A stretch of 64,000 bases of DNA, taken from assembly GCA_963739295.1 (NCBI GenBank), contig CAVTZS010000015.1, positions 13,574 through 77,573 on the forward strand, given 5' to 3'. The notes under the pieces were generated by a model, which did not search any database, was not told where the DNA came from, and saw only the letters and a program-made list of their open reading frames with translations. This DNA is from an uncultured delta proteobacterium. Lineage in GTDB: Bacteria; Desulfobacterota; Desulfobaccia; Desulfobaccales; 0-14-0-80-60-11. The translations under genes and the position numbers were made by a program. Positions within the stretch are counted from its first letter, which is position 1. Each line of letters begins with the position of its first letter. Shown one piece after another: positions 2,109 through 60,799 of this stretch.

Positions 2109-3459
2109 CTATAACCTCCCCTCAGCCTGCAAGGCGTTTTTCAGGGCCAGGGCCTTTTCGGCCACGGCCATGGGGGTGGGGCCCAGGATGCGGATCATGG
2201 GCTCCTTGCCCACCTCGCCCTTATCGTAGATCAAGTCCGGGGGCGCTTCTCCGGGCTTCAGCACCGAGGCCACGCCCCAGGCCAGGGTGCCGCCTTCTTG
2301 GTCCTTGATTTCGTGCGGCTCCTGAGAACGGTCAAAGCTGGCCAGCCGCAGGTGCAGCAGGGGGGCCAGGCCTTCCAACCCCTCGAGATATTTGATATTC
2401 ATGGCGCACCGGAGGTCCGGGTGGGTTTCCATGGCGGCTAAGATGATGGCGGCGATGTGGCGGGAAGCGCCGAATGCCGGGGGCGCAGGGATGATCAGGC
2501 CCTGGGGGCTTTTCAGCAAGCGGCCTGGAAAGGCCGCCACATCCTGGGGCCCTTCGGGAAAAGGGGTGGCATAGCCCAGATTGGTCATAACTTCCGGCAC
2601 CAGGGACTCAATTCCTTCCTCTTGCAGGCGGGCCGCGGCGATTCGCAAAGACTCCAAGACCTCATAGCGGGACAACTCCCGGGCAAAGGGGGCATAGGGG
2701 TTGACCGGCCCCCGGCCCCGGCCCAGGGGTAGACCATAGCGGAGGGCCTGGGCCGTCAGGCGGCGGGCTTGATTTACCGCCTCCGGCATGGAGAGCCCCA
2801 GGGCCAGACCCGCGGCGCAGGCCGTGGCCAGGGCGCAGCCCGAGCCATGGTTGTGGGGCGCAGGCAGGCGGGCTCCCGGCAGTTGATAAGAATTCTTCCC
2901 ATCGGTGAGGAGGTCCACCGGCTCTCCCGGGCAGGTGGCCACCCTTGGCCAGGACCCAGCGGGGTCCCAGGGCTTGCAGGCGACGGGCCGCTTCTTCCAG
3001 GTGCGAGGGGCTAGTGATTTCCAGACCGGTGAGCCTGGCCGCCTCAAATACATTGGGGGTCAGGAGGTGCGCCAGGGGGAAGAGCTCCTCCCTCAGGGCC
3101 TTGACCCCGGCCTCCTCCAGCAAGGGGGAACCGTCGCTGGCGGCCAGGATGGGGTCCAGCACCAGGGGGAGGGAGAGCTCCTTAAGGAGCCGGGCCACCG
3201 TCTTAACAATCGCGGCCGTGCCCAACATGCCTATCTTGACGGCAGCCACCGGGAAATCACTCACCACCGCTTCCAGCTGGGCGGCCACCACCTCGGGGTC
3301 CACCGGGTGGACTGCCTGAACCCCCTGGCTATTCTGAACGGTTAGGGCGGTAGCCACGGTCAGGCCGTAGGTCCCCATGAGGGTGGCCACCTTCAAATCC
3401 TGCTGCAGGCCCGCGCCCGCGCCCGGATCGGAGCCGGCAATAATCAACACGGTCTTCAT
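2109..3459 (-). CDS. thiDN: ThiD (HMP/HMP-P kinase) fused to a ThiN-type thiamine-phosphate synthase domain; one apparent frameshift near 2925
   Basis: MKTVLIIAGSDPGAGAGLQQDLK...VLAKGGHLPG continues after a 1-nt frame change as EPVDLLTDGKNSYQLPG...HNHGSGCALATACAAGLA. A ThiN-like domain follows (VPEVMTNLGYA, DVAAFPGRL, FGASRHIAAIIL). Span is 1351 nt = 3n+1. Confidence 0.8.
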
Positions 3460-24101: not shown

Positions 24102-24137
24102 AAAAAAAACCGGATTGCCTCAACTCAGGCAACCCGG
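24102..24137 (-). terminator. riboswitch expression-platform terminator
   Basis: Minus strand CCGGGUUGCCU-gaguug-AGGCAAUCCGG (11 bp) followed by U8. The 5' arm overlaps the 3' strand of the aptamer. Confidence 0.7.
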
Positions 24138-24205
24138 CTATCTCCATCATTTAGAGACCCGTGGCTTTCCGTCCCCACCTTGCGATGGGTTTGGCCTTTT
24201 CTGAC
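24128..24205 (-). promoter_or_regulatory. c-di-GMP-I (GEMM-I) riboswitch aptamer
   Basis: Minus strand reads AAAGGCCAAACCCAUCGCAAGGUGGGGACGGAAAGCCACGGGUCUCUAAAUGAUGGAGAUAGCCGGGUUGCC. It tracks the recalled Vc2 pattern GGCAAACC-(GNRA hairpin)-GGGACGCAAAGCC-(hairpin)-AGCGGGGUUACC. Confidence 0.65.
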
Positions 24206-48919: not shown

Positions 48920-49653
48920 AATGCACCCTGCCCCTGGCCCTGACCTTCCTCACCATCCTGCCCTGGCCCCGGCTGGGTTTGGCCGGGCCGGAAGATCTGG
49001 CCCGCTCCATGTTCTGGTTCCCCTGGGTGGGGGCCTTGTTGGGTGGCATTTATGGGGTAGCCTGGGCCGGGCTCCACAAAATCCTCCCTGCCCCCGCGGC
49101 GGCCGCCCTCCTCCTGGGTTTGACGGTATGGCTCACGGGCGCCCTCCACCAGGACGGCTTGGCGGACACCGCAGACGGCCTGGCCGGGGGTGCAAACCCC
49201 GCGGAGCGCCTGCAAATTATGAAAGACTCCCACCTGGGCACCTTCGGGGTGGTGAGCCTGATCCTGGTGCTTCTCTTAAAATTTGCCTTTTTTCTGGCCT
49301 GGGCCGATAAGGGGGCGGGCAGGATTCTCTTCCTCTATCCGGTGATCAGCCGCTGGGGGATGGTGTATCTGGCCTTCCTGTCGCCCTACGCCCGCCCCGA
49401 GGGTGGTCTGGGCCAGGCCATGACCACCGGGGTCGATGGCAAGGTGGTGGCCGGCGCCACCTTGAGCGCCCTGGCCCTGGCCCTGGTTATTTATGGCTTC
49501 CGGGGGCTGGTGCTCCTTGCCGTGGCCGCTCTCTGTGTTTGGCTGGGGAGCCTATATTTCCAGAAAAAGTTGGGCGGGGTCACCGGCGACGTCCTGGGCG
49601 CCGGCAATGAGCTGCTGGAAGTACTGGCCCTGGGAGGAAGCTTGTTTTTTTAG
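48916..49653 (+). CDS. cobS: adenosylcobinamide-GDP ribazoletransferase (cobalamin synthase)
   Basis: ATGA overlap with cobT. LTFLTILPW, HQDGLADTADGL, GGVTGDVLGA. The track ORF 48628..49653 over-extends upstream. Confidence 0.85.
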   Translation: MKCTLPLALTFLTILPWPRLGLAGPEDLARSMFWFPWVGALLGGIYGVAWAGLHKILPAPAAAALLLGLTVWLTGALHQDGLADTADGLAGGANPAERLQIMKDSHLGTFGVVSLILVLLLKFAFFLAWADKGAGRILFLYPVISRWGMVYLAFLSPYARPEGGLGQAMTTGVDGKVVAGATLSALALALVIYGFRGLVLLAVAALCVWLGSLYFQKKLGGVTGDVLGAGNELLEVLALGGSLFF

Positions 49654-49658
49654 TCTTT

Positions 49659-49687
49659 TTGACAAATGATTACGGTTCAGTTATAAT
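49659..49687 (+). promoter_or_regulatory. sigma-70-type promoter (consensus -35 and -10)
   Basis: TTGACA (49659-49664), 17-nt spacer, TATAAT (49682-49687). GAGGA SD at 49703, ATG at 49717. Confidence 0.6.
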
Positions 49688-49695
49688 TGAAATAA
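49683..49695 (+). repeat. 13-bp direct repeat ATAATTGAAATAA, left copy
   Basis: Identical 13-mer at 51348-51360. Confidence 0.6.
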
Positions 49696-49716
49696 CTCCT
49701 TTGAGGAATTAGTAAT

Positions 49717-50868
49717 ATGCCACGCACTATAGAAACGAGTGTAAATCCCAAAGTATTGCAATGGGCTAGAGAGAGTATTGGATTGGGAGTTAATAATGTC
49801 GCTAAAAAAGTGAAATTAAAAGAGGAAGCAATAAGAAAATGGGAATCGGGTGAGGGTAAAATTAGGTTAACTCAGCTAGAAAAACTTGCCGATATTTATA
49901 AACGACCATTAGCAGCATTTTTCCTATCGAGCCCACCAAAAGAACCACCATTACCTGATGATTTCCGTGGATTAGCAAAAGGTCAATTAGCATTTTCTTC
50001 AAAAACATTACTTGGAATTAGAAGAGTAAGATATATTCAATCATTATATTTTGATTTGGCTGCATCAATGAATGTTCGGCCGAATGCGAAAATAAAAAAA
50101 ATAGAACTATCGAATAATCCAGAACTATTGGCAAATGAGATAAGAAATCAATTAAACATTCATATAGAAGACCAATTCCAATGGAATGACGAAAGAAGCG
50201 CCCTTATCGAATGGAAAAAAATAATAGAAAGCCAAGGGGTATTAGTTTTAGAAATTGCTATGCCTTTAGAAGAAGCAAGGGCTTTCTCATTGGCTGGCGA
50301 AGGAATACCGGTTGTTGTGCTCAATTACAGCGATTACCCTAATGGAAGGATTTTTTCAATATTTCACGAATATGCTCATATTCTGCTTAATCATGGCGGA
50401 ATATGTAATCCTTTGGCAGAAGAGACAGAGGAAATCTCAATAGAAAAATTCTGTAACCATTTTGCTGGAGGTTTTTTAGTTCCAAAGACTGCCTTATTAA
50501 AGTTAAATGAAGAATATGATAAGAAGTATGATATTGATAAAAAATTAACTAAACTTGCTAGCAAATTTAAAGTTAGTAGACAAGTAATCTTAAGACGATT
50601 ACTATCGTTGGAATTAATTAACAAAGATTATTTCCAAAGAAAGAATCAAGAGTTAATTGCTGAATTTAAAAGAATTAAAAGACAGATAAGAGGGAGGGCT
50701 GTTCCTTCCGAACAGTGTATTCGGAAAAATGGATTTTACTTTGTTTCACTAGTTTTAGATGCTTATAGAGGAGGTAAAATAACCTATAGCGATGTTTCGG
50801 ATTACTTAGGTATAAAACTTAAATATGTTCCTAAGGTTGAAGAACGCCTTGGGGAAATATTTTCTTAA
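49717..50868 (+). CDS. XRE-type HTH fused to ImmA/IrrE-family zinc metallopeptidase
   Basis: N-terminal HTH-like VLQWARESIGLGVNNVAKKVKLKEEAIRKWESGEGKIRLTQLEKLADIY. HEYAHILLNH is the HExxH motif. Confidence 0.75.
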   Translation: MPRTIETSVNPKVLQWARESIGLGVNNVAKKVKLKEEAIRKWESGEGKIRLTQLEKLADIYKRPLAAFFLSSPPKEPPLPDDFRGLAKGQLAFSSKTLLGIRRVRYIQSLYFDLAASMNVRPNAKIKKIELSNNPELLANEIRNQLNIHIEDQFQWNDERSALIEWKKIIESQGVLVLEIAMPLEEARAFSLAGEGIPVVVLNYSDYPNGRIFSIFHEYAHILLNHGGICNPLAEETEEISIEKFCNHFAGGFLVPKTALLKLNEEYDKKYDIDKKLTKLASKFKVSRQVILRRLLSLELINKDYFQRKNQELIAEFKRIKRQIRGRAVPSEQCIRKNGFYFVSLVLDAYRGGKITYSDVSDYLGIKLKYVPKVEERLGEIFS

Positions 50869-51339
50869 ATGAATAAAGGCTTGTTTCAGAAATATTGCAT
50901 AGACACAAGTTCTCTAATAGAATTAAGGCATTACCCTCGGGTAACATTCCCTTCATTGTGGGAGAAGATTGAGGAACTTATAGGTCAGGGAATTCTAATA
51001 GCTCCTAGGGAGGTATATAGGGAACTTAAGCAACAAGCAGACGATATATATTTTTGGGCAAAGAATAATAAAACAATGTTTAAGGCTATAAATGGAAAAG
51101 AGTTATCAGAAGTGAAAGATATTTTAAAAGTTTATCCAGACCTTATTAATTATAATAAAACTACACCCGACGCCGATCCTTTCATCATTGCTTTAGCTAA
51201 GCATAGAGCATGTACTGTTATTACTCAAGAAAGATTGAAGCCTTCTGGTAAACCAAAAATTCCAAATGTTTGCAAAGATTATGGAATTAACTGTATTGAT
51301 TTATTAAGTTTATTTATTGAGCAAGAATGGTCTTTTTGA
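50869..51339 (+). CDS. DUF4411-family (PIN-like nuclease fold) protein
   Basis: ATG immediately follows the upstream TAA. YCIDTSSLIEL, DADPFIIALAK, VITQE match the recalled DUF4411 pattern. Confidence 0.7.
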   Translation: MNKGLFQKYCIDTSSLIELRHYPRVTFPSLWEKIEELIGQGILIAPREVYRELKQQADDIYFWAKNNKTMFKAINGKELSEVKDILKVYPDLINYNKTTPDADPFIIALAKHRACTVITQERLKPSGKPKIPNVCKDYGINCIDLLSLFIEQEWSF

Positions 51340-51347
51340 AAAAGTGG

Positions 51348-51360
51348 ATAATTGAAATAA
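51348..51360 (+). repeat. 13-bp direct repeat ATAATTGAAATAA, right copy
   Basis: Identical to 49683-49695. Confidence 0.6.
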
Positions 51361-51453
51361 TGATGGAATATTATTTATGATGAAATAGTGATAACCTATT
51401 GATATAATATTAAAAATATAGAATAATTAAGTTAGATAAAAAAGGAGTACAAT

Positions 51454-52564
51454 ATGTTACCTGAAATAGCCGAAATCCGGGCCAAATTGAAAGAATTTAA
51501 AGATAAGCTCACGCTCCTCCGAGGGCATCTTTGATCTGGAGGACAAGCAGGCCAGATTAGCAGAGTTAGAAAAGCAACTGGCCACGCCGGGACTGTGGGA
51601 GGATGCCACCCAGGCCGCCGACCTCTTAAGAGAGCGCAGCGCCCTGACCCAGGTGGTGGAAGATTGCCAGCAGCACTTTAAGCAGGTGGAGGACCTGGAA
51701 GTCCTGCTGGACCTAGCCCTGGAAGAGGACGATCAAGGGGCCCTGAAGGATGTGGCCCAGGACCTGGCCGTCCTGGAGGAAACCTATCAGGGTTGGGAGC
51801 TCAAGCTCCTTTTTACCGAAGAAGACCAGAAGAACGCCATCATTACCATCCATGCCGGCGCCGGCGGCACTGAGGCCCAGGATTGGGCCGAAATCTTGCT
51901 GCGCATGTATCTGCGCTATGCGGAACGCAAGGCCTTCAAGACCGAGACCCTGGACCTGTTGGTCGGGGACGAAGCCGGGATCAAGAGCGTCACCTTTACG
52001 GCCTCGGGAGACCACGCCTACGGCTATTTGAAGAGTGAAAGCGGCATCCACCGCCTGGTGCGCATCTCTCCTTTCGATGCCAGTGGCCGCCGCCATACCT
52101 CCTTTGCCGCGGTTCAGGTGCTGCCGGAGGTGGATGAAAAAATTGAGATCGACCTCAACGAGAAGGACTTGCGGATCGATACCTTCCGGGCCAGCGGCCC
52201 CGGCGGGCAACACGTTAATAAGACCAGCTCCGCGGTGCGCATCACCCACCTGCCCAGCGGCATTGTCGTCACCTCCCAAACCGAAAGATCGCAGCACCGC
52301 AATAAAGAGCTGGCCATGAAGGTCTTGCGGGCCCGCCTCTACAGTCTGGAGCAGCGCAAGCGGGAAGAAAAGAAACAGGAGCTGCAAGAGTCTCAGAAAG
52401 AAATCGCCTGGGGCAGCCAGATCCGTTCCTATACCCTTCAGCCCTACCGCCTGGTGAAGGACCACCGCACCAAGCACGAGGAAGGCAACGTGGATGCGGT
52501 CCTGGACGGCGACCTGGACCCCTTCGTGGAAGCCTATTTGATGCAGCCCGGGGAGGCTAAGTAG
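51454..52564 (+). CDS. prfB: peptide chain release factor 2, with programmed +1 frameshift (51454..51531 joined to 51533..52564)
   Basis: AAGGAG SD. MLPEIAEIRAKLKEFKDKLTLLRGHL, then in-frame TGA at 51532. The +1 frame continues DLEDKQARLAELEKQL... with SPF and GGQ motifs (SPFDASGRRHTSF, GPGGQHVNKTSSAVRITH). Confidence 0.9.
51522..51535 (+). promoter_or_regulatory. prfB autoregulatory +1 frameshift site
   Basis: GAGGG (SD-like), CAT, then CTT TGA T. Same layout as the classical AGGGGG-UAU-CUU-UGA-C site. Confidence 0.85.
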
Positions 52565-52645
52565 GTTGATGGGAGGGCTGGGGGCTGCGGCCTTTACCCC
52601 TGCGCAGCCGCATCTCAGGGCCATAAGTCCCAAAGAGGAGCATTC

Positions 52646-54376
52646 ATGAAAGTTTCCAGGTCGGCGCTTTTGGGGTTGGGGGCTCTGGTCGTGCTGGTGG
52701 CCGCCCTCTGGTACACCAGTCGTGCGGTTACCCCCAAGGAAGCCACCCGGGAGGACGTGCTGACCGAAGCCAGAGATGGCGGCTACCGGATCATCGACAC
52801 GGAAGAACTTTGGGAATATTGCCGCCAAGGCGCCCAAGACCTGCTGCTGGTGGACGTCCGGCCCGAGTGGGACTACCAGAAAGGTCATATCCAAGGGGCG
52901 GTTAACTTTCCTCTGGAACCCACCGCCTGGTCCAGATGGTGGAAAAAAGAGGCCCTGGAAAATTTTCTGGGACCTGATCGAAACCGGATAATCGTCTTTT
53001 ACTGAGCCGGGCTGGCCTGAGTCCGGAGCGACTCGGCGGCCCGGGTGGCCGTTAGAATCGGTTATAAGAACGTCTGCCGTGACCCCAGGGGCTTCCCGGA
53101 GTGGCAGTCCCGGGGTTTGCCGGTGGAACGCCCCTCGCTTGAACTCGCCGCCATCTCCCTGGACCCCAAGATTCCCGGGCCCTTATATGGCTGGGCCATG
53201 ATTTGGACGCTGCTGATGATCTTTGTCGGGGGCGTGGCTCTCAATCTGACCCCGTGCGTCTATCCCCTCCTGCCCATCACCGTCTCCTGTTTCGGGGGTC
53301 GCAGCGGCCAGACCCGGGGCCGGCTGGTGATCCACGGGCTGCTCTATGTAGGGGGCCTGTGTCTCACCAACTCCCTCCTGGGGGTGGCGGCGGCCCTGAC
53401 CGGGGGCCTTATGGGGGCCATGTTGCAAAGCCCCTGGGTGCTGGTGGCCGTGGCCGCGATCCTGGTCTTTTTTGCCACCAGCATGTTTGGCTTCTGGGAA
53501 CTGCGTCTGCCCGGGGGCCTGACCCGGGCCGCGGCCAAATCTTGCGCCGGTTACTTCGGCAGCCTGTTCATGGGATTGACCCTGGGGGTGGTGGCCGCGC
53601 CCTGCGTCGGTCCCTTTGTGCTGGGCCTGCTTACCTGGGTGGCCAGCCTGGGCTCCCCGCTCCTGGGTTTTATGGTGTTCTTCACTCTGAGCCTGGGCCT
53701 GGGTCTGCCTCTCTTCTTCCTGGCGGTCTTTTCCGGGAGCTTGGAAAAGCTTCCCCGTTCGGGGGAATGGCTTATCTGGGTGCGCCAGCTCATGGGCTGG
53801 GTCCTCCTCGGCATGGCCGCCTATTTTATCAGGCCGGTTCTTTTCGATCCTTGGGGAGTAATCCTCCTGGCGGCCATCGCCCTGGGAGCGGGGGTGCACC
53901 TGGGCTGGCTCGACCATACCATGGCCCATTTCCGGGCTTTTCCGTGGCTGAAGGCTGGCGCGGCGCTGGCGGGCCTCCTCCTGGCCCTCCTCTTCCTGGC
54001 AACCTGGGCGCTGCGCAGCCCCGGAATGGTCTGGCAGCCTTATTCCGAGGAGCTTCTGGCGGAAGCCAGGTTGCAGGGAAAACCGGTAATTATCGACTTT
54101 TATGCTATCTGGTGCGCCCCGTGCCAGGAAATGGAAAAGACTACCTTTCGTAATCCAGATATTGTTAAAATCGCGGCCCGGAATTTTATTACCATCAGGG
54201 TAGATCTCACCCGGTCCGGGAACCCCCTCAACCAGCGGTTGCTGAGGCAGTATGGGATCAAAGGGGTGCCCACGGTGATATTTTTGGATAGCCAGGGCCA
54301 GGAGCGCCCTGACCTGCGCCAGGTGGGTTACCTGCCGGCCGAGCAATTCCGTAACCGGATGGCCCAGATAAAATGA
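52646..54376 (+). CDS. rhodanese - DsbD/CcdA-type transmembrane core - thioredoxin fusion; two in-frame TGA codons (53003, 53018) read as putative selenocysteine
   Basis: One frame throughout (53045-52646 = 399). It reads ...RNRIIVFY-TGA-AGLA-TGA-VRSDSAARVAVRIGYKNV...FPEWQSRGLPVE. The first ORF stops at the rhodanese active-site loop and the second begins mid-domain. Downstream: LNLTPCVYP, AAPCVGP (DsbD core), FYAIWCAPCQ (Trx). Confidence 0.65.
53014..53041 (+). promoter_or_regulatory. SECIS-like hairpin after TGA 53003
   Basis: GGCC-UGAGUC-cggagc-GACUCG-(gc)-GGCC. The stem includes the second TGA. Confidence 0.4.
53035..53053 (+). promoter_or_regulatory. SECIS-like hairpin after TGA 53018
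   Basis: GGCGGCC-cgggu-GGCCGUU, starting 15 nt after the TGA. Confidence 0.45.
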
Positions 54377-54439: not shown

Positions 54440-54757
54440 ATGCTGAAGGTCAGGTGCTTCCTTAACGAACCCAACGGCAAACCCTGAAAGCATTTTCTCA
54501 AGATGGTGCCCAGGTTGGGCCAAAAATACCCCCTTGAGACGGAATTCATCTCCAAGCCTAAGGCCGAATACCAGACCGAGGAATACTTTGAGCTGGACCT
54601 GCCCGTGGCCCCCGCGGTGATGGTGGGCGAAGAGATCGTGGTGGAAGGCTCGGACGTGACGGAAGACACCCTGGAGGCGAAAATTCGCCTACACCTGGGC
54701 CTGCCTCCCCTGGAGCAGGCAAAAAAGGGAATTCTGAGCCGCTGGCTCGGGAAGTGA
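54440..54757 (+). CDS. small thioredoxin-fold-like protein with in-frame TGA (54485), putative selenoprotein
   Basis: Strong SD TAGGAGGT 6 nt before ATG 54440. MLKVRCFLNEPNGKP-TGA-KHFLKMVPRLGQKYP... is in frame with track ORF 54503..54757, which itself has no SD. PAVMVGEEIVVEGSDVTEDTLEAKI resembles the C-terminal half of small Trx/Grx-like proteins. Confidence 0.5.
54506..54521 (+). promoter_or_regulatory. SECIS-like hairpin after TGA 54485
   Basis: G-(u bulge)-GCCCA-ggu-UGGGC-C. The loop lies 26-28 nt after the TGA. Confidence 0.45.
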
Positions 54758-54864: not shown

Positions 54865-55707
54865 TCAGGTGGAGCCGGGTTTGCAGAAGCTTTCTTTTCC
54901 AGGTTCCACCAGGATTTGGGCCTGGGCCTCGATGGATGCTTGCGCCTTGGCATCCACCAGTTTTTCCCCGTAGAACAGAGCGCCTTCCGTATAGGCCGAG
55001 CTTTTGAATCCCGTATAGCCGGCCAAACCCGCCCGGTGGAAGCCAACCTGGAGCATGAGGGCCAGGAAATCCTTTCCTGGTATGGCCCCGCCGATTCACT
55101 GATACCAGTTTTCCGCCTTGCCGGCTATCTCAGGCGGCAGGTCTTGCACCAGAACCATGTCGGCCAGCATCAGGCGACCCCCGGCCTTCAGCACTCGCTG
55201 CGCTTCCCTTAAGGCCTTTTCTTTATCCAAAGTCAGGTTGAAGACCCCGTTGGAGATAATCACGTCAAATTCGTTATCCGGGAAGGGCAGAGATTCGGCT
55301 TCGCCCACCTGGAAGGTGACGTTTTCTAAACCCAGCAGGGCGAGGTTGGCCCTGGCCTTCTCGATCATCTCCGGCGTCACGTCCAGGCCCACCACCCGGC
55401 CCCGGGGGCCCACCAGCTTGGCGGCCACCAGGGTGTCAAAGCCATTCCCGCAGCCAATATCCAGGACGGCCTCTCCCGCATAGAGCGGGCCCAGGCTGAA
55501 GGGATTTCCCACCCCGCAGAAGGAGTCCACGATGGGTTTAGGAAAAACCCGGATAATTTCCGGAGGATATTTTTGCTGCCTGAGCCCCTCTTCCCCGATG
55601 GGGTACTGGAAGCAGCAGGCGGTGCCCGAGGCCGCCACCCGGGAATATTTTTCCCGGATGCCATCCCGGATGGTGACCCTTTCTTGATCCGTCAGGTGTT
55701 GCGTCAT
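54865..55707 (-). CDS. ArsM-like SAM-dependent methyltransferase with in-frame TGA (55098..55096), putative selenoprotein
   Basis: VLDIGCGNGFD (motif I), N-terminal CC pair, FCGVGNP, then ...AENWYQ-TGA-IGGAIPGKDFLALMLQVGF. This aligns with the ArsM W.GC(V/I)AGA...GF segment. The two track ORFs (55096..55707 and 54865..55056) are in one frame. The SNC(V/I)xNL cysteine is Gly here (ISNGVFNL). Confidence 0.7.
55062..55080 (-). promoter_or_regulatory. SECIS-like hairpin after TGA 55098..55096
   Basis: Minus strand CCAGGAAA-gga-UUUCCUGG, starting 16 nt after the TGA. Confidence 0.45.
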
Positions 55708-59440: not shown

Positions 59441-60799
59441 TTATTCCTCTTCCTCGAATTCGATCCCGTCCCGTTCGAACTGGGCGTCACGCTCGGTGTG
59501 GGCCGCCTCGATTTCCTCCTCGCTCCAGGGCTCATAGTCCAGCACTTTGGACACCAGTTCCCAAAGGTATAGGGTCTCTTCGTAGTTGCCCATGTCATGG
59601 ACCTTGGGCAGCCCCTTCATGATCTGGTCTCGACAGTTGTGGCAGGGGGCCACGACAATCTCCGCGCCGGTGTCCTTGATCTGGTCTGCCTTCACCTTGC
59701 CGTAGGCCAGGCGCTCCTGGTCGTAGGGCATGGCCCAGGCGCCGCCCCCGGCGCCGCAACAGAAGTTGTTCAGGGGGTCGTCGCACATCTCGCGGTACAG
59801 GCTCTCGTCAATGCACTGTTTTGAAATCCAGCGGCACATCTCTCCGTTGTTAGGTTCATCCTTATAAAGCATATAGGACTTGCGCACGTAGTTGCAAGGG
59901 TCGTGCACCGTGAAGGTGTGGTGGATTTTAGTCTTGTCCAGCTTGATTCGGCCGGATTTGATGTATTCTATTAGCAGATCCATGATGCTCACTACCTTGA
60001 ATTCGTCGAAAACTTCCGGAAACCAATTGTTGAACCCGACCCGGGTTGCAAAGTAGGCGTGCCCTCATTCGGGGTACAAGATGGTTTTCGCCTTTACTCG
60101 TCGGGCGTTCTCGATGATCCGACTCACCTGTTCCTTCCAGGACGGGTCGTCACCGGAGAACAGCCCCCAGTTAACCCCTTCCCAGTTAGTCGAGGACACG
60201 GTCCAGTCTTCCTTGGCGGCATAGAAGATGCGCCACCAGAACTTCATGTCGTCGGGCTCGCCGAAGGGCTCCTTGGAGTTAATGGTGACGATGATGTTGG
60301 CCCCTTCCTTGTCCACCGGCACATAGAAGCCGGGGCAGGGCTGCTCCTCGTCTTCCTCCATCTCCTTGCCCAACTCTGCCAGGAGGAACAGGAAATCATC
60401 CCTGGGAATGCCGAGGTTGTTGCCCCTCTGCAGATTCATCATGGTGCCCTTATGGATGGGTCCGGGGACCTTGTCCCGCTCCCGCAACGTGCGGCAGGCC
60501 CGGAAGGTCTTCATTAATTTAATCCCCATGGGGCACTGATACTCGCAGCGGCCGCACAGGGTGCAGACCCAGGGCCACTTGGAGTCAATGACCTCCTGCT
60601 CCATACCGAAGACTATGGCCCGGATGGCCTTGCGGGAATCCCAGCCGGTCTCCGAGCCCGGCATGGTGACCAGGCCGGTGGCGGGGCAGCCTCCGGCGCA
60701 GGTGCCACAGGTATAACAGCGATCCGCCAACTCGGGGGCAATCCCGATTTTGCGGTGCTTCCTGTCTACCCTGACCTCTTGTATGACATCCTCTGCCAT
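59441..60799 (-). CDS. HdrD/GlpC-like Fe-S oxidoreductase (2x[4Fe-4S] plus CCG domain) with in-frame TGA (60067..60065), putative selenoprotein
   Basis: CYTCGTCAGGCP and CTLCGRCEYQCP, ...KTILYPE-TGA-GHAYFATRV..., then HDPCNYVRK and FCCGAGGG. The two track ORFs (60065..60799 and 59441..59992) are in one frame (60064-59992 = 72). Confidence 0.7.
60030..60051 (-). promoter_or_regulatory. SECIS-like hairpin after TGA 60067..60065
   Basis: Minus strand UUG-(c bulge)-AACCCG-ggu-CGGGUU-CAA. The loop lies 24-26 nt after the TGA. Confidence 0.5.

What the first reader, a model, noticed from the sequence alone, without database searches (positions are those of the whole stretch)
52646..54376. Rhodanese-DsbD-thioredoxin fusion with a U-x4-U active-site loop (two Sec codons five codons apart)
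Reading 52646..54376 as one frame gives a signal-anchor, a complete rhodanese domain, a DsbD/CcdA-type membrane core (LTPCVYP, AAPCVGP) and a C-terminal WCAPC thioredoxin.

The only interruptions are two TGAs in ...IIVFY-U-AGLA-U-VRSDSAA.... My recollection of a rhodanese subfamily with a YCxGxxCxxS loop places both TGAs on Cys columns. Without read-through, the first ORF lacks the catalytic loop and the second ORF starts in the middle of the rhodanese fold (VAVRIGYKNV...GLPVE), which makes no sense as separate proteins.

Two overlapping candidate SECIS hairpins (53014-53041 and 53035-53053) could serve the two codons one after the other. Bacterial proteins with two closely spaced Sec residues are uncommon. 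I cannot place a Sec-Sec rhodanese fused to an electron-transfer membrane module in any described family.
Basis: partly seen in the sequence, partly recalled or inferred. Interest (0 to 1): 0.8.

Follow-up and report, generated by a model that had tools for sequence, protein, structure and literature searches.

The report
Known double-selenocysteine TsoB membrane reductase gene
This is a real gene for a membrane protein with two selenocysteines five residues apart, but it belongs to the TsoB family of sulfate-reducer relatives, which was catalogued in 2025, so it is an ordinary member of a known, functionally untested kind.

Summary
Frame 52646..54376 is open except for TGA at 53003 and 53018, and it encodes a signal anchor, a rhodanese domain, a DsbD-type membrane core and a thioredoxin domain.

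Both TGAs are conserved in 81/81 orthologous loci. They align with Cys in Cys-type homologues, and the first sits on the canonical rhodanese catalytic Cys.

[quoted passage not shown] The next gene is TsoC (NF045708). So the claim that no described family fits is wrong: the family comes from Haft & Tolstoy 2025, as listed in a 2026 review.

What I add concerns the recoding signal. Two abutting hairpins follow the codons.
- Hairpin B (53036-53052) has strong covariation at synonymous sites and is kept in the U-U, C-U and U-C variants.
- Hairpin A (53019-53034) contains the second UGA in its stem and is intact only when both UGAs are present.

It stays open whether A is a second SelB site or a collapsible spacer.

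The likely function is a periplasmic U-x4-U centre reduced through a DsbD-like relay and acting on sulfane sulfur. This is inferred, not shown.

tsoA is absent from this window.

The parts
52635..52640 (+). Shine-Dalgarno-like GAGGAG upstream of the tsoB start codon
   Evidence: Read directly from the sequence. It ends 5 nt before the ATG at 52646.
52646..54376 (+). tsoB coding sequence: 576 residues including Sec120 and Sec125, with a TGA stop
   Evidence: Translation. NF045694 scores 945.5 bits against a cutoff of 805.
52652..52708 (+). N-terminal hydrophobic signal anchor or signal peptide (residues 3-21)
   Evidence: Hydropathy analysis.
52802..53110 (+). Rhodanese domain (residues 53-155), predicted to be periplasmic
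   Evidence: Pfam PF00581, PDB rhodanese alignments and topology analysis.
53003..53005 (+). UGA1 = Sec120, on the canonical rhodanese catalytic Cys column
   Evidence: One search aligns it with the catalytic Cys of 6mxv, 2hhg, 3d1p and PspE. TGA is present in 81/81 loci.
53018..53020 (+). UGA2 = Sec125, inside the rhodanese active-site loop, which is enlarged by two residues
   Evidence: This is the same column as the single Sec of the C-x4-U rhodaneses.
53019..53034 (+). Hairpin A: stem GAGUC/GACUC with loop CGGAGC. Its stem contains the GA of UGA2.
   Evidence: 96% of cells paired across 80 sequences, with one compensatory pair. Synonymous sites in the stem are frozen. It is lost in the C-U and U-C variants.
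53036..53052 (+). Hairpin B: stem GCGGCC/GGCCGU with loop CGGGU. This is the canonical SECIS-type hairpin.
   Evidence: 99.6% of cells paired. Pair 42-54 shows GC 53, AU 19, CG 4, GU 2, and 0/500 shuffles reach the observed score. It is kept in every Sec-containing variant.
53201..54013 (+). DsbD/CcdA-type membrane core, 8 TM helices (residues 186-456), with Cys204 (53255-53257) and Cys320 (53603-53605)
   Evidence: Pfam DsbD_TM. NF001419 DsbD aligns positions 168-572. CcdA structure 5vkv matches. Hydropathy supports 8 helices. Both Cys are invariant.
54032..54355 (+). C-terminal DsbD-gamma-like thioredoxin domain (residues 463-570) with WCAPC (Cys490 and Cys493, 54113-54124)
   Evidence: The best PDB matches are DsbD gamma domains 7aye, 4ip1 and 1vrs.
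54440..54757 (+). tsoC, the downstream operon partner: a 105-residue NEPxGxxU selenoprotein with UGA at 54485-54487
   Evidence: Translation. NF045708 scores 143.6 bits against a cutoff of 45. It lies downstream of tsoB in most loci.
54508..54520 (+). tsoC SECIS hairpin: GCCCA-GGU-UGGGC, 20 nt after its UGA
   Evidence: The same hairpin is conserved in about 60 loci.

Best explanation
Identity. [quoted passage not shown] It is followed by tsoC.

Shown here:
- One gene is translated through two UGA codons 15 nt apart.
- Both UGAs are conserved across the family, and both are replaced by Cys in Cys-type homologues.
- UGA1 is the canonical rhodanese catalytic position.
- UGA2 lies in the same active-site loop, which is enlarged by two residues.
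- Two conserved hairpins follow. Hairpin B is a canonical bacterial SECIS and is present wherever either UGA is present. Hairpin A has UGA2 in its stem and exists only when both UGAs exist.

Inferred recoding mechanism. SelB carrying Sec-tRNA is recruited at hairpin A for UGA1 (13-nt spacer). The ribosome then melts A as it moves five codons. A second SelB complex waiting on hairpin B (15-nt spacer) serves UGA2.

Inferred protein mechanism, by homology with DsbD:
- The N-terminal helix puts the rhodanese domain in the periplasm, in the place of the DsbD alpha domain.
- Electrons from the cytoplasm (thioredoxin, or possibly TsoC) pass through Cys204/Cys320 in the membrane core.
- They then reach the periplasmic WCAPC thioredoxin domain.
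- That domain reduces a Sec120-Sec125 selenenyl-selenide (or a Se-X-Se adduct).

Most likely chemistry. One Sec takes sulfane sulfur (persulfide, polysulfide or thiosulfate). The other Sec resolves it and releases sulfide. The relay then re-reduces the pair.
For: Family membership:
- NF045694 scores 945.5 bits against a cutoff of 805, and NF045708 hits the next ORF.
- The family, its UxxxxU motif and the Tso operon are listed in PMC13188914, citing Haft & Tolstoy 2025.

The two Sec codons:
- TGA/TGA is present in 81/81 loci from Thermodesulfobacteriota and Nitrospirota.
- C/C is found at these columns in P0002, P0003, P0005 and P0042.
- Intermediate C-U (L085) and U-C (L089, L092) forms exist.
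- The first U aligns with the catalytic Cys of solved rhodaneses, and the loop carries a 2-residue insertion.

The hairpins:
- Hairpin B covaries at synonymous third positions; 0/500 shuffles reach the observed score and slid controls give zero.
- Third positions in the stems are frozen, while those in loops and the linker are free.
- Spacers of 13 and 15 nt fall within the 13-20 nt seen for tsoA, tsoC and two other selenoprotein genes.
- Both hairpins meet the loop, stem and spacing rules of the bSECIS model quoted.

Relay and topology:
- DsbD beta and gamma are collinear with residues 185-575.
- The closest solved chains are DsbD gamma domains and CcdA.
- All four relay Cys are invariant.
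- There are 1 + 8 TM helices, with K/R-rich loops after TM1, 3, 5 and 7.

Sulfur chemistry: related C-x4-U rhodaneses sit next to Psr/Phs-type molybdoenzymes, TusA and other rhodaneses.
Against: - No experiment is available, and I could not read the primary paper.
- Hairpin A has an atypical loop. It is CGCAGC in most sequences, and G[G|U] occurs in only 14/80. The tsoA, tsoC and hairpin B loops all carry GGU-type motifs.
- Hairpin A alone folds at only -4.8 kcal/mol, above the -7.5 limit of the model.
- The U-C variants keep UGA1 without a foldable hairpin A, so hairpin B may be able to serve UGA1.
- A diselenide is a much poorer electron acceptor than a disulfide (general chemistry), so reduction by a CxxC domain is not self-evident.
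- The substrate is pure inference.
- tsoA, part of the canonical operon, is missing from this window.
Confidence: 0.7

Rival explanations
1. A single SECIS serves both codons. Hairpin B is the only SelB-binding element. Hairpin A is a collapsible spacer. While the ribosome sits on UGA1, folded A brings B to an effective distance of about 21-22 nt. After A is unwound, the linear distance from UGA2 to the loop of B is also 21 nt.
For: - Hairpin B is kept in the U-U, C-U and U-C forms, whereas hairpin A is intact only in U-U.
- The loop of A is atypical for the lineage.
- The loop of B lies 36 nt from UGA1, still inside the 16-37 nt window of the bSECIS model.
- Hairpin A is 16 nt long, almost exactly the 15-nt distance between the UGAs.
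Against: - SelB would have to be exchanged on hairpin B within five codons.
- The first two loop bases of A (C, G) never vary, although synonymous CGR-to-AGR changes are possible and do occur in the loop of B.
- The A-to-UGA1 spacer (13 nt) equals that of the tsoA SECIS.
Confidence: 0.35
2. The U-x4-U rhodanese centre does not handle sulfur. It handles selenium or a metalloid or metal (As, Te, Hg), for example in detoxification or selenium trafficking powered by the DsbD-like relay.
For: - tsoB-tsoC is flanked, convergently, by an arsenite-methyltransferase-like selenoprotein (NF047649).
- TsoA, TsoC and TsoX are small Sec proteins of unknown role.
- Two adjacent selenols are a strong soft-metal ligand (general chemistry).
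Against: - The review calls the neighbouring selenoprotein genes 'otherwise unrelated'.
- The nearest single-Sec rhodanese relatives lie in sulfur-compound reductase clusters.
Confidence: 0.25
3. The TGAs are true stops, so this is two genes or a pseudogene. Or UGA is read as a standard amino acid through an alternative genetic code or near-cognate read-through.
For: - Gene callers split the locus into 119-aa and 443-aa ORFs.
- One relative (L083) has GGA and CGA at the two columns.
Against: - The reading frame, the peptide between and after the stops, and both TGAs are conserved in 81 loci. No start codon or ribosome-binding site exists for the second part.
- Homologues have Cys, not Trp or Gly, at these columns.
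- TGA also terminates tsoB itself.
- RNA covariation immediately downstream points to a recoding signal.
- Four curated or known selenoprotein families in one window all carry TGA at the family's Sec position.
Confidence: 0.03

Closest known systems
TsoB, rhodanese/DsbD fusion-like selenoprotein (NCBIfam NF045694; Haft & Tolstoy 2025, as listed in PMC13188914)
   Same: Full-length match above the curated cutoff. It has the UxxxxU motif with 2 Sec, the same domain order, and tsoC downstream.
   Different: This locus lacks tsoA. prfB abuts tsoB directly, whereas the nearest relatives have prfB-tsoA-tsoB-tsoC.
E. coli DsbD (also ScsB and CcdA): the transmembrane thiol-disulfide electron relay
   Same: The 8-TM core has one Cys in TM1 and one in TM4. 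The C-terminal periplasmic thioredoxin-like CxxC domain is most similar to DsbD gamma. The predicted topology is the same.
   Different: The immunoglobulin-like alpha domain, with its Cys103/Cys109 pair, is replaced by a rhodanese domain with a Sec-x4-Sec pair. The DsbD model scores below its cutoff (249.8 against 330).
Single-Sec rhodanese selenoproteins with C-x4-U (YCRNFR-U-VRS). These are probably 'rhodanese form 1, UxxS' in the review table.
   Same: Same rhodanese subfamily and enlarged loop. Their Sec is on the TsoB UGA2 column. One SECIS hairpin sits at the position of hairpin B.
   Different: They have one Sec only and no hairpin A. They are standalone or AhpC-fused periplasmic proteins with no DsbD core. 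They lie in Psr/Phs-like molybdoenzyme clusters.
Rhodanese-related (seleno)protein LYCAU / UxU form (NF041203; Zhang & Gladyshev 2007, PMC1976440)
   Same: A rhodanese domain in which a second Sec evolved next to the first. This is a precedent for double-Sec rhodaneses.
   Different: The motif is CxU or UxU rather than U-x4-U. There is only a weak hit here (32.9 bits against a cutoff of 115) and no membrane relay.
Bacterial SECIS as modelled by bSECISearch (E. coli fdhF type)
   Same: A hairpin in the coding sequence just downstream of UGA, with G in the first two loop positions and 16-37 nt between the UGA and the loop.
   Different: Here there are two abutting mini-hairpins for two UGAs 15 nt apart. 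The first contains the second UGA in its stem and has an atypical loop.
Rhodanese sulfurtransferases that use thioredoxin as acceptor (GlpE, PspE) and the periplasmic polysulfide carrier Sud
   Same: A rhodanese fold with a catalytic nucleophile that carries sulfane sulfur, and a dithiol partner that releases it (my own knowledge).
   Different: In TsoB the reductant is fused and membrane-wired. The nucleophile is Sec, and a second Sec sits in the loop. No activity has been measured.

Membership tests
TsoB (NCBIfam NF045694) | Whole-protein HMM score at or above the curated cutoff (805 bits) | tested here: met
   945.5 bits. Residues 9-576 align with model positions 5-572 of 572 (U replaced by C in the query).
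TsoB (NCBIfam NF045694) | U-x4-U motif (two Sec) in the rhodanese domain | tested here: met
   TGA at codons 120 and 125. The same is seen in 80/80 fetched loci. The motif is listed as UxxxxU in PMC13188914.
TsoB (NCBIfam NF045694) | Rhodanese + DsbD membrane core + thioredoxin domain architecture | tested here: met
   Pfam domains and PDB matches.
Tso operon (three-selenoprotein operon) | tsoC (NEPxGxxU selenoprotein) adjacent to tsoB | tested here: met
   ORF 54440..54757 with TGA at 54485. NF045708 scores 143.6 bits against a cutoff of 45.
Tso operon (three-selenoprotein operon) | tsoA (LULAxC selenoprotein) adjacent to tsoB | tested here: not met
   No LULAxC motif and no tblastn hit better than E=0.004 anywhere in the 64-kb window. 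The motif is present upstream of tsoB in 41 of the 80 loci.
Bacterial selenoprotein gene (general) | In-frame UGA aligned with Cys in homologues and conserved across species | tested here: met
Bacterial selenoprotein gene (general) | Sec actually inserted, dependent on SelB and tRNA-Sec | not testable with these tools
   No tRNA-Sec was found in the window: ARAGORN reported only tRNA-His. I did not screen the window for selA, selB or selD. This needs 75Se labelling or mass spectrometry.
bSECIS model (as quoted in PMC13188914) | Apical loop of 3-9 nt, upper stem of 4-16 bp, and G in the first two loop positions | tested here: met
   Hairpin A: 5 bp, loop CGNAGY. Hairpin B: 6 bp, loop CG[G/U]GU (model).
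bSECIS model (as quoted in PMC13188914) | 16-37 nt between the UGA and the apical loop | tested here: met
   UGA1 to loop A is 18 nt, UGA2 to loop B is 21 nt, and UGA1 to loop B is 36 nt (columns of alignment A3).
bSECIS model (as quoted in PMC13188914) | Minimum free energy at or below -7.5 kcal/mol | tested here: inconclusive
   Hairpin B alone folds at -9.5. Hairpin A alone folds at -4.8. Longer folds of the window sequence reach -27.6, but their lower stem is not conserved.
DsbD (NF001419) | Score at or above the cutoff, and an N-terminal alpha domain with a redox Cys pair | tested here: not met
   249.8 bits against a cutoff of 330. The alignment starts at model position 168, so no alpha domain is matched.
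DsbD (NF001419) | Membrane Cys pair and gamma-domain CxxC | tested here: met
   Cys204, Cys320, Cys490 and Cys493 are invariant. Gamma-domain structures are the best PDB hits.
Rhodanese domain (PF00581) | Pfam score above gathering, with the nucleophile on the catalytic Cys column | tested here: met
   58.6 bits against 22.2. The first U aligns with the Cys of CGG-RS, CAG-RS and CN-AGRQS.
Rhodanese domain (PF00581) | Standard six-residue active-site loop | tested here: not met
   All four printed alignments open a 2-residue gap in the solved chains opposite positions within the CAGLAC loop.

The most novel reading that the evidence does not exclude
The recoding signal may be the new part. Two abutting mini-hairpins follow two UGA codons 15 nt apart. 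The first hairpin carries the second UGA in its own stem. It exists only when both codons are UGA: it is absent or unfoldable in the C-x4-U and U-x4-C variants, while hairpin B is always kept.

If so, bacteria solve closely spaced Sec codons in one of two ways. Either two SelB complexes are pre-loaded side by side, or a self-melting spacer presents one SECIS at the right distance twice. I could not check whether the 2025 paper already describes this.
Probability: 0.4. Interest if true: 0.5.

Novelty: already known. Interest (0 to 1): 0.3.

Why it matters
For genome annotation, this locus should be one selenoprotein gene (tsoB), not a 119-aa rhodanese fragment plus a 443-aa 'DsbD'. Most of the public protein calls I retrieved for the family still make this error.

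Biologically, TsoB is widespread in sulfate-reducer relatives (Thermodesulfobacteriota, also found in Nitrospirota) and has no tested function. A DsbD-type relay ending in a Sec-x4-Sec rhodanese would be a new kind of periplasmic reductase.

The natural series of U-U, C-U, U-C and C-C variants, together with their hairpins, gives a ready-made design for experiments. These would address how bacterial SelB decodes two UGAs five codons apart.

Tried and rejected
- Long hairpin 53007-53044, the MFE fold of the window sequence. Its lower stem is not conserved: 75% of cells are paired, no better than shuffles. A shifted register is only weakly better. Rejected as the family's structure.
- RNAalifold's small hairpin between the two UGAs (cols 13-28). 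It shows no covariation.
- Rfam. No SECIS or other family reaches significance at 52900-53200. Only a riboswitch and a tRNA are found in the whole window.
- tsoA search in the window by motif and by tblastn with eight TsoA sequences. Nothing was found.
- My first motif filter wrongly dropped tsoB and tsoC, because TGA was counted as sense when extending ORFs. I redid it.
- Primary paper (Haft & Tolstoy 2025). It is not held under its PMC id, DOI or PubMed id.
- Pfam gives nothing for TsoC or TsoA.
- Two of the four metagenome pattern hits (L090, L091) are chance matches.
- I did not run structure prediction. The tool returns no coordinates, so the Sec-Sec or Sec-CxxC distances that would matter could not be read.
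Full report
**Observation**

Frame 52646..54376 translates as 577 codons. The only internal stops are TGA at 53003-53005 and 53018-53020, in ...NRIIVFY-U-AGLA-U-VRSDSAARVAVRIGYKNV.... The mechanical ORFs are 52646..53005 (119 aa) and 53045..54376 (443 aa, GTG start). With U written as C, Pfam finds Rhodanese (residues 53-155), DsbD_TM (186-399) and thioredoxin-like domains (463-570).

**Is it more than chance?**

A protein search returned more than 100 close homologues (65-76% identity). They are about 445 aa long and cover only the last 77% of the query, so they are cut at the same spot. A few full-length proteins of 578-587 aa also appeared.
- In the full-length proteins both columns are Cys: VFYCTGQTCVRSD, VFYCAGPDCVRSD, VFYCADLSCSRS, VFYCADLACSRS.
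- A scan of species-representative genomes gave 596 confirmed relatives, of which I kept the best 80. They are Thermodesulfobacteriota (Desulfobaccales, Desulfobacterales, Syntrophobacterales, Desulfobulbaceae, the Olavius Delta 1 symbiont, Desulfacinum infernum) and some Nitrospirota.
- All 80, like the window, have TGA at both columns inside a nearly invariant VFY-U-[A/D]GL[T/A]-U-VRSDSAAR peptide.
- TGA also ends tsoB itself, so an alternative genetic code is not the explanation.

**What it is**

[quoted passage not shown] The next ORF is 54440..54757, MLKVRCFLNEPNGKP-U-KHF..., with TGA at 54485. It matches NF045708, 'NEPxGxxU motif selenoprotein TsoC', at 143.6 bits (cutoff 45).

A 2026 review lists TsoA (LULAxC), TsoB (UxxxxU, 2 Sec) and TsoC. 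It describes the 'Tso (three selenoprotein operon)' and credits Haft & Tolstoy 2025. I could not obtain that paper. Double-Sec rhodaneses of another type (UxU) were reported as early as 2007. The object is a known family with no tested function.

**Operon context**

The LULAxC (tsoA) motif lies upstream of tsoB in 41 of the 80 loci. In 38 of these a tsoC motif also follows, giving tsoA-tsoB-tsoC, sometimes with extra tsoC copies or tsoX. The window has no tsoA, either by motif or by tblastn.

prfB (51454..52564) ends 81 nt before tsoB. The closest relatives L028 and L068 have prfB-tsoA-tsoB-tsoC. A syntenic Cys/Cys relative, L081, has cobT-cobS-prfB-DUF3786-tsoB, followed by the same convergent methyltransferase, flavin reductase and aldehyde dehydrogenase as the window.

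**The active site**

Alignments to solved rhodaneses (6mxv, 2hhg, 3d1p, PspE) put the first U on the catalytic Cys. They also open a 2-residue gap opposite the U-AGLA-U loop. The loop is therefore enlarged, and the second U lies inside it.

Variants show that the second column is the more constant one:

| First column / second column | Example |
|---|---|
| U/U | 81 loci |
| C/U | L085 (VFY-C-SGPA-U-PRSD) |
| U/C | L089, L092 |
| C/C | P0002, P0003, P0005, P0042 |
| G/C | P0173 |

L092 (U/C) is close kin of the C/C protein P0002.

A related but distinct family is made of periplasmic rhodaneses with YCR[NS]FR-U-[VL]RS. It has its single Sec on the second column and probably corresponds to 'form 1, UxxS' in the review. 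Its genes sit beside molybdopterin oxidoreductase, 4Fe-4S and cytochrome b subunits, a TorD-like chaperone, TusA and further rhodaneses. That is a sulfur-compound reductase setting.

**The relay and topology**

Residues 185-575 are collinear with DsbD model positions 168-572, which cover beta plus gamma but no alpha domain. The best solved matches are DsbD gamma domains (7aye, 4ip1, 1vrs; E about 1e-19) and CcdA 5vkv. Cys204, Cys320, Cys490 and Cys493 are invariant.

Hydropathy gives one N-terminal helix plus eight TM helices. Loops rich in K/R follow TM1, 3, 5 and 7. This places both the rhodanese and thioredoxin domains in the periplasm, like DsbD alpha and gamma.

By inference, electrons flow from the cytoplasm to Cys204/Cys320, then to WCAPC, then to Sec120/Sec125. 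The chemistry at the Sec pair is not shown. My best guess is uptake of sulfane sulfur by one Sec, resolution by the other with release of sulfide, and re-reduction by the relay. A selenium or metalloid substrate is a live alternative.

**The recoding signal**

I aligned 75 nt from 80 loci without gaps (A3; column c corresponds to window position 52996+c).

Hairpin B (cols 40-45 paired with 51-56; window 53036-53052; loop CG[G/U]GU):
- It is paired in 99.6% of cells.
- Pair 42-54 joins the third positions of two Ala codons and shows GC 53, AU 19, CG 4, GU 2.
- Pair 45-51 shows CG 74, UA 5.
- No shuffle out of 500 reaches the covariation score, and slid controls give zero double changes.

Hairpin A (cols 23-27 paired with 34-38; window 53019-53034; loop CGNAGY):
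- It is paired in 96% of cells.
- It has one compensatory CG-to-GC change in the two Nitrospirota sequences.

Third-position entropy is low in the stems: Val GTC 0.45, Asp GAC 0.10, Ala GCC 0.38, Val GTG 0.36 bits. In comparable codons in loops, the linker and the flanks it is 1.0-1.9 bits.

The long hairpin that RNAfold draws for the window itself (53007-53044) is not conserved. In the distant C/C form L082 both hairpins and the peptide VRSDSAARVAV are gone.

**Which hairpin serves which codon?**

Spacers are 13 nt from UGA1 to A and 15 nt from UGA2 to B. For comparison:

| Gene | Spacer after UGA | Loop |
|---|---|---|
| tsoA | 13 nt | AAGGU |
| tsoC | 20 nt | (A)GGU(U) |
| Methyltransferase selenoprotein in this window | 15 nt | GGA (window sequence) |
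| HmcF-like selenoprotein in this window | 17 nt | GGU-type (window sequence) |

Both hairpins meet the loop, stem and spacing rules of the published bSECIS model. B is also just within range of UGA1, at 36 nt.

Variants help but do not settle the question:
- In the C-U form L085 and in four single-Sec relatives there is one hairpin at the B position and none at A.
- In the U-C forms L089 and L092, B is intact and A no longer folds (-1.0 against -4.8 kcal/mol). TGA to TGC breaks a stem pair, and two further stem bases have drifted.

So B goes with any Sec codon, and A goes only with the double-UGA state. The loop of A lacks the G[G|U] motif in 66/80 sequences.

I favour a tandem arrangement, with A serving UGA1 and B serving UGA2. 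I give substantial weight to the rival in which B serves both and A is a collapsible spacer.

**Verdict**

However, it is a regular member of the catalogued TsoB family. Novelty is 'already known'. Interest is modest (0.3) and rests on the untested function and on the two-hairpin recoding signal.

Noticed in passing
window 54865-55707 (- strand); TGA at 55096-55098: An arsenite-methyltransferase-like gene, convergent with tsoC, reads through an in-frame TGA (...AENWYQ-U-IGGAIPG...). It matches NF047649, 'methyltransferase/UXPK-star double selenoprotein' (496 bits, cutoff 460). Its C-terminus here is ...SFCKPGST*, so the family's second, C-terminal Sec seems to be Cys in this genome.
   Followed up: partly
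window 59441-60799 (- strand); TGA at 60065-60067: Two adjacent ORFs join through an in-frame TGA into one 452-residue HmcF/DsrK/HdrD-like iron-sulfur protein (...ILYPE-U-GHAYF...). A GGU-loop hairpin lies 17 nt downstream. This fits the known 'Fe-S oxidoreductase-like, UGH' selenoprotein type. With it, the window holds at least four selenoprotein genes and five Sec codons.
   Followed up: partly
window 51454-52564 (+ strand); CTT TGA at 51529-51534: prfB (release factor 2, which reads UGA) lies directly upstream of tsoB. It carries the classic +1 frameshift site CTT TGA at codons 26-27. The order cobT-cobS-prfB-(tsoA)-tsoB is shared with L028, L068 and L081, so the adjacency looks like lineage synteny rather than a functional link.
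   Followed up: partly
window about 49650-51450: An island of 30-38% GC sits in a 60-70% GC background, between cobS and prfB. It carries an spr1629-like antitoxin/repressor (49717-50868) and a DUF4411 protein (50869-51339). It is probably a horizontally acquired toxin-antitoxin-like module. The syntenic locus L081 has no such insertion.
   Followed up: partly
L083 4001-5764 (CAZRES010000028.1): A tsoB relative has GGA (Gly) and CGA (Arg) in place of both TGAs, each one substitution away. Both hairpins are still nearly intact, and the upstream tsoA and tsoX keep their TGA. This is either a very recent inactivation or an assembly or polishing artefact.
   Followed up: no
L068 around 3295-3340: A U-x4-U tsoB has a 17-codon in-frame deletion (UVRSD|PLGFPEW) that removes hairpin B and part of the rhodanese fold. 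It is the only one of the 80 loci without hairpin B, so it is a possible pseudogene or misassembly.
   Followed up: no
L084 3001-3981, L086 1464-, L087 1618-, L088 2501-: Periplasmic rhodaneses with YCR[NS]FR-U-[VL]RS have a single Sec on the TsoB UGA2 column. One of them is fused in frame to an AhpC/TSA-like CxxC domain. They lie next to Psr/Phs-type molybdopterin oxidoreductase genes, a TorD-like chaperone, TusA and other rhodaneses. Gene callers truncate them at the TGA.
   Followed up: partly
window 24124-24204 (- strand): A c-di-GMP-I-GGC riboswitch aptamer (Rfam RF03167, 75.8 bits, gathering score 59).
   Followed up: no
window 53002; alignment A3 column 6: The codon before UGA1 is TAC in 74 of 78 Tyr codons (entropy 0.29 bits, against about 1.0 for other two-fold sites). 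The codon before UGA2 varies freely. This may be a 5' context effect on the first recoding event.
   Followed up: no
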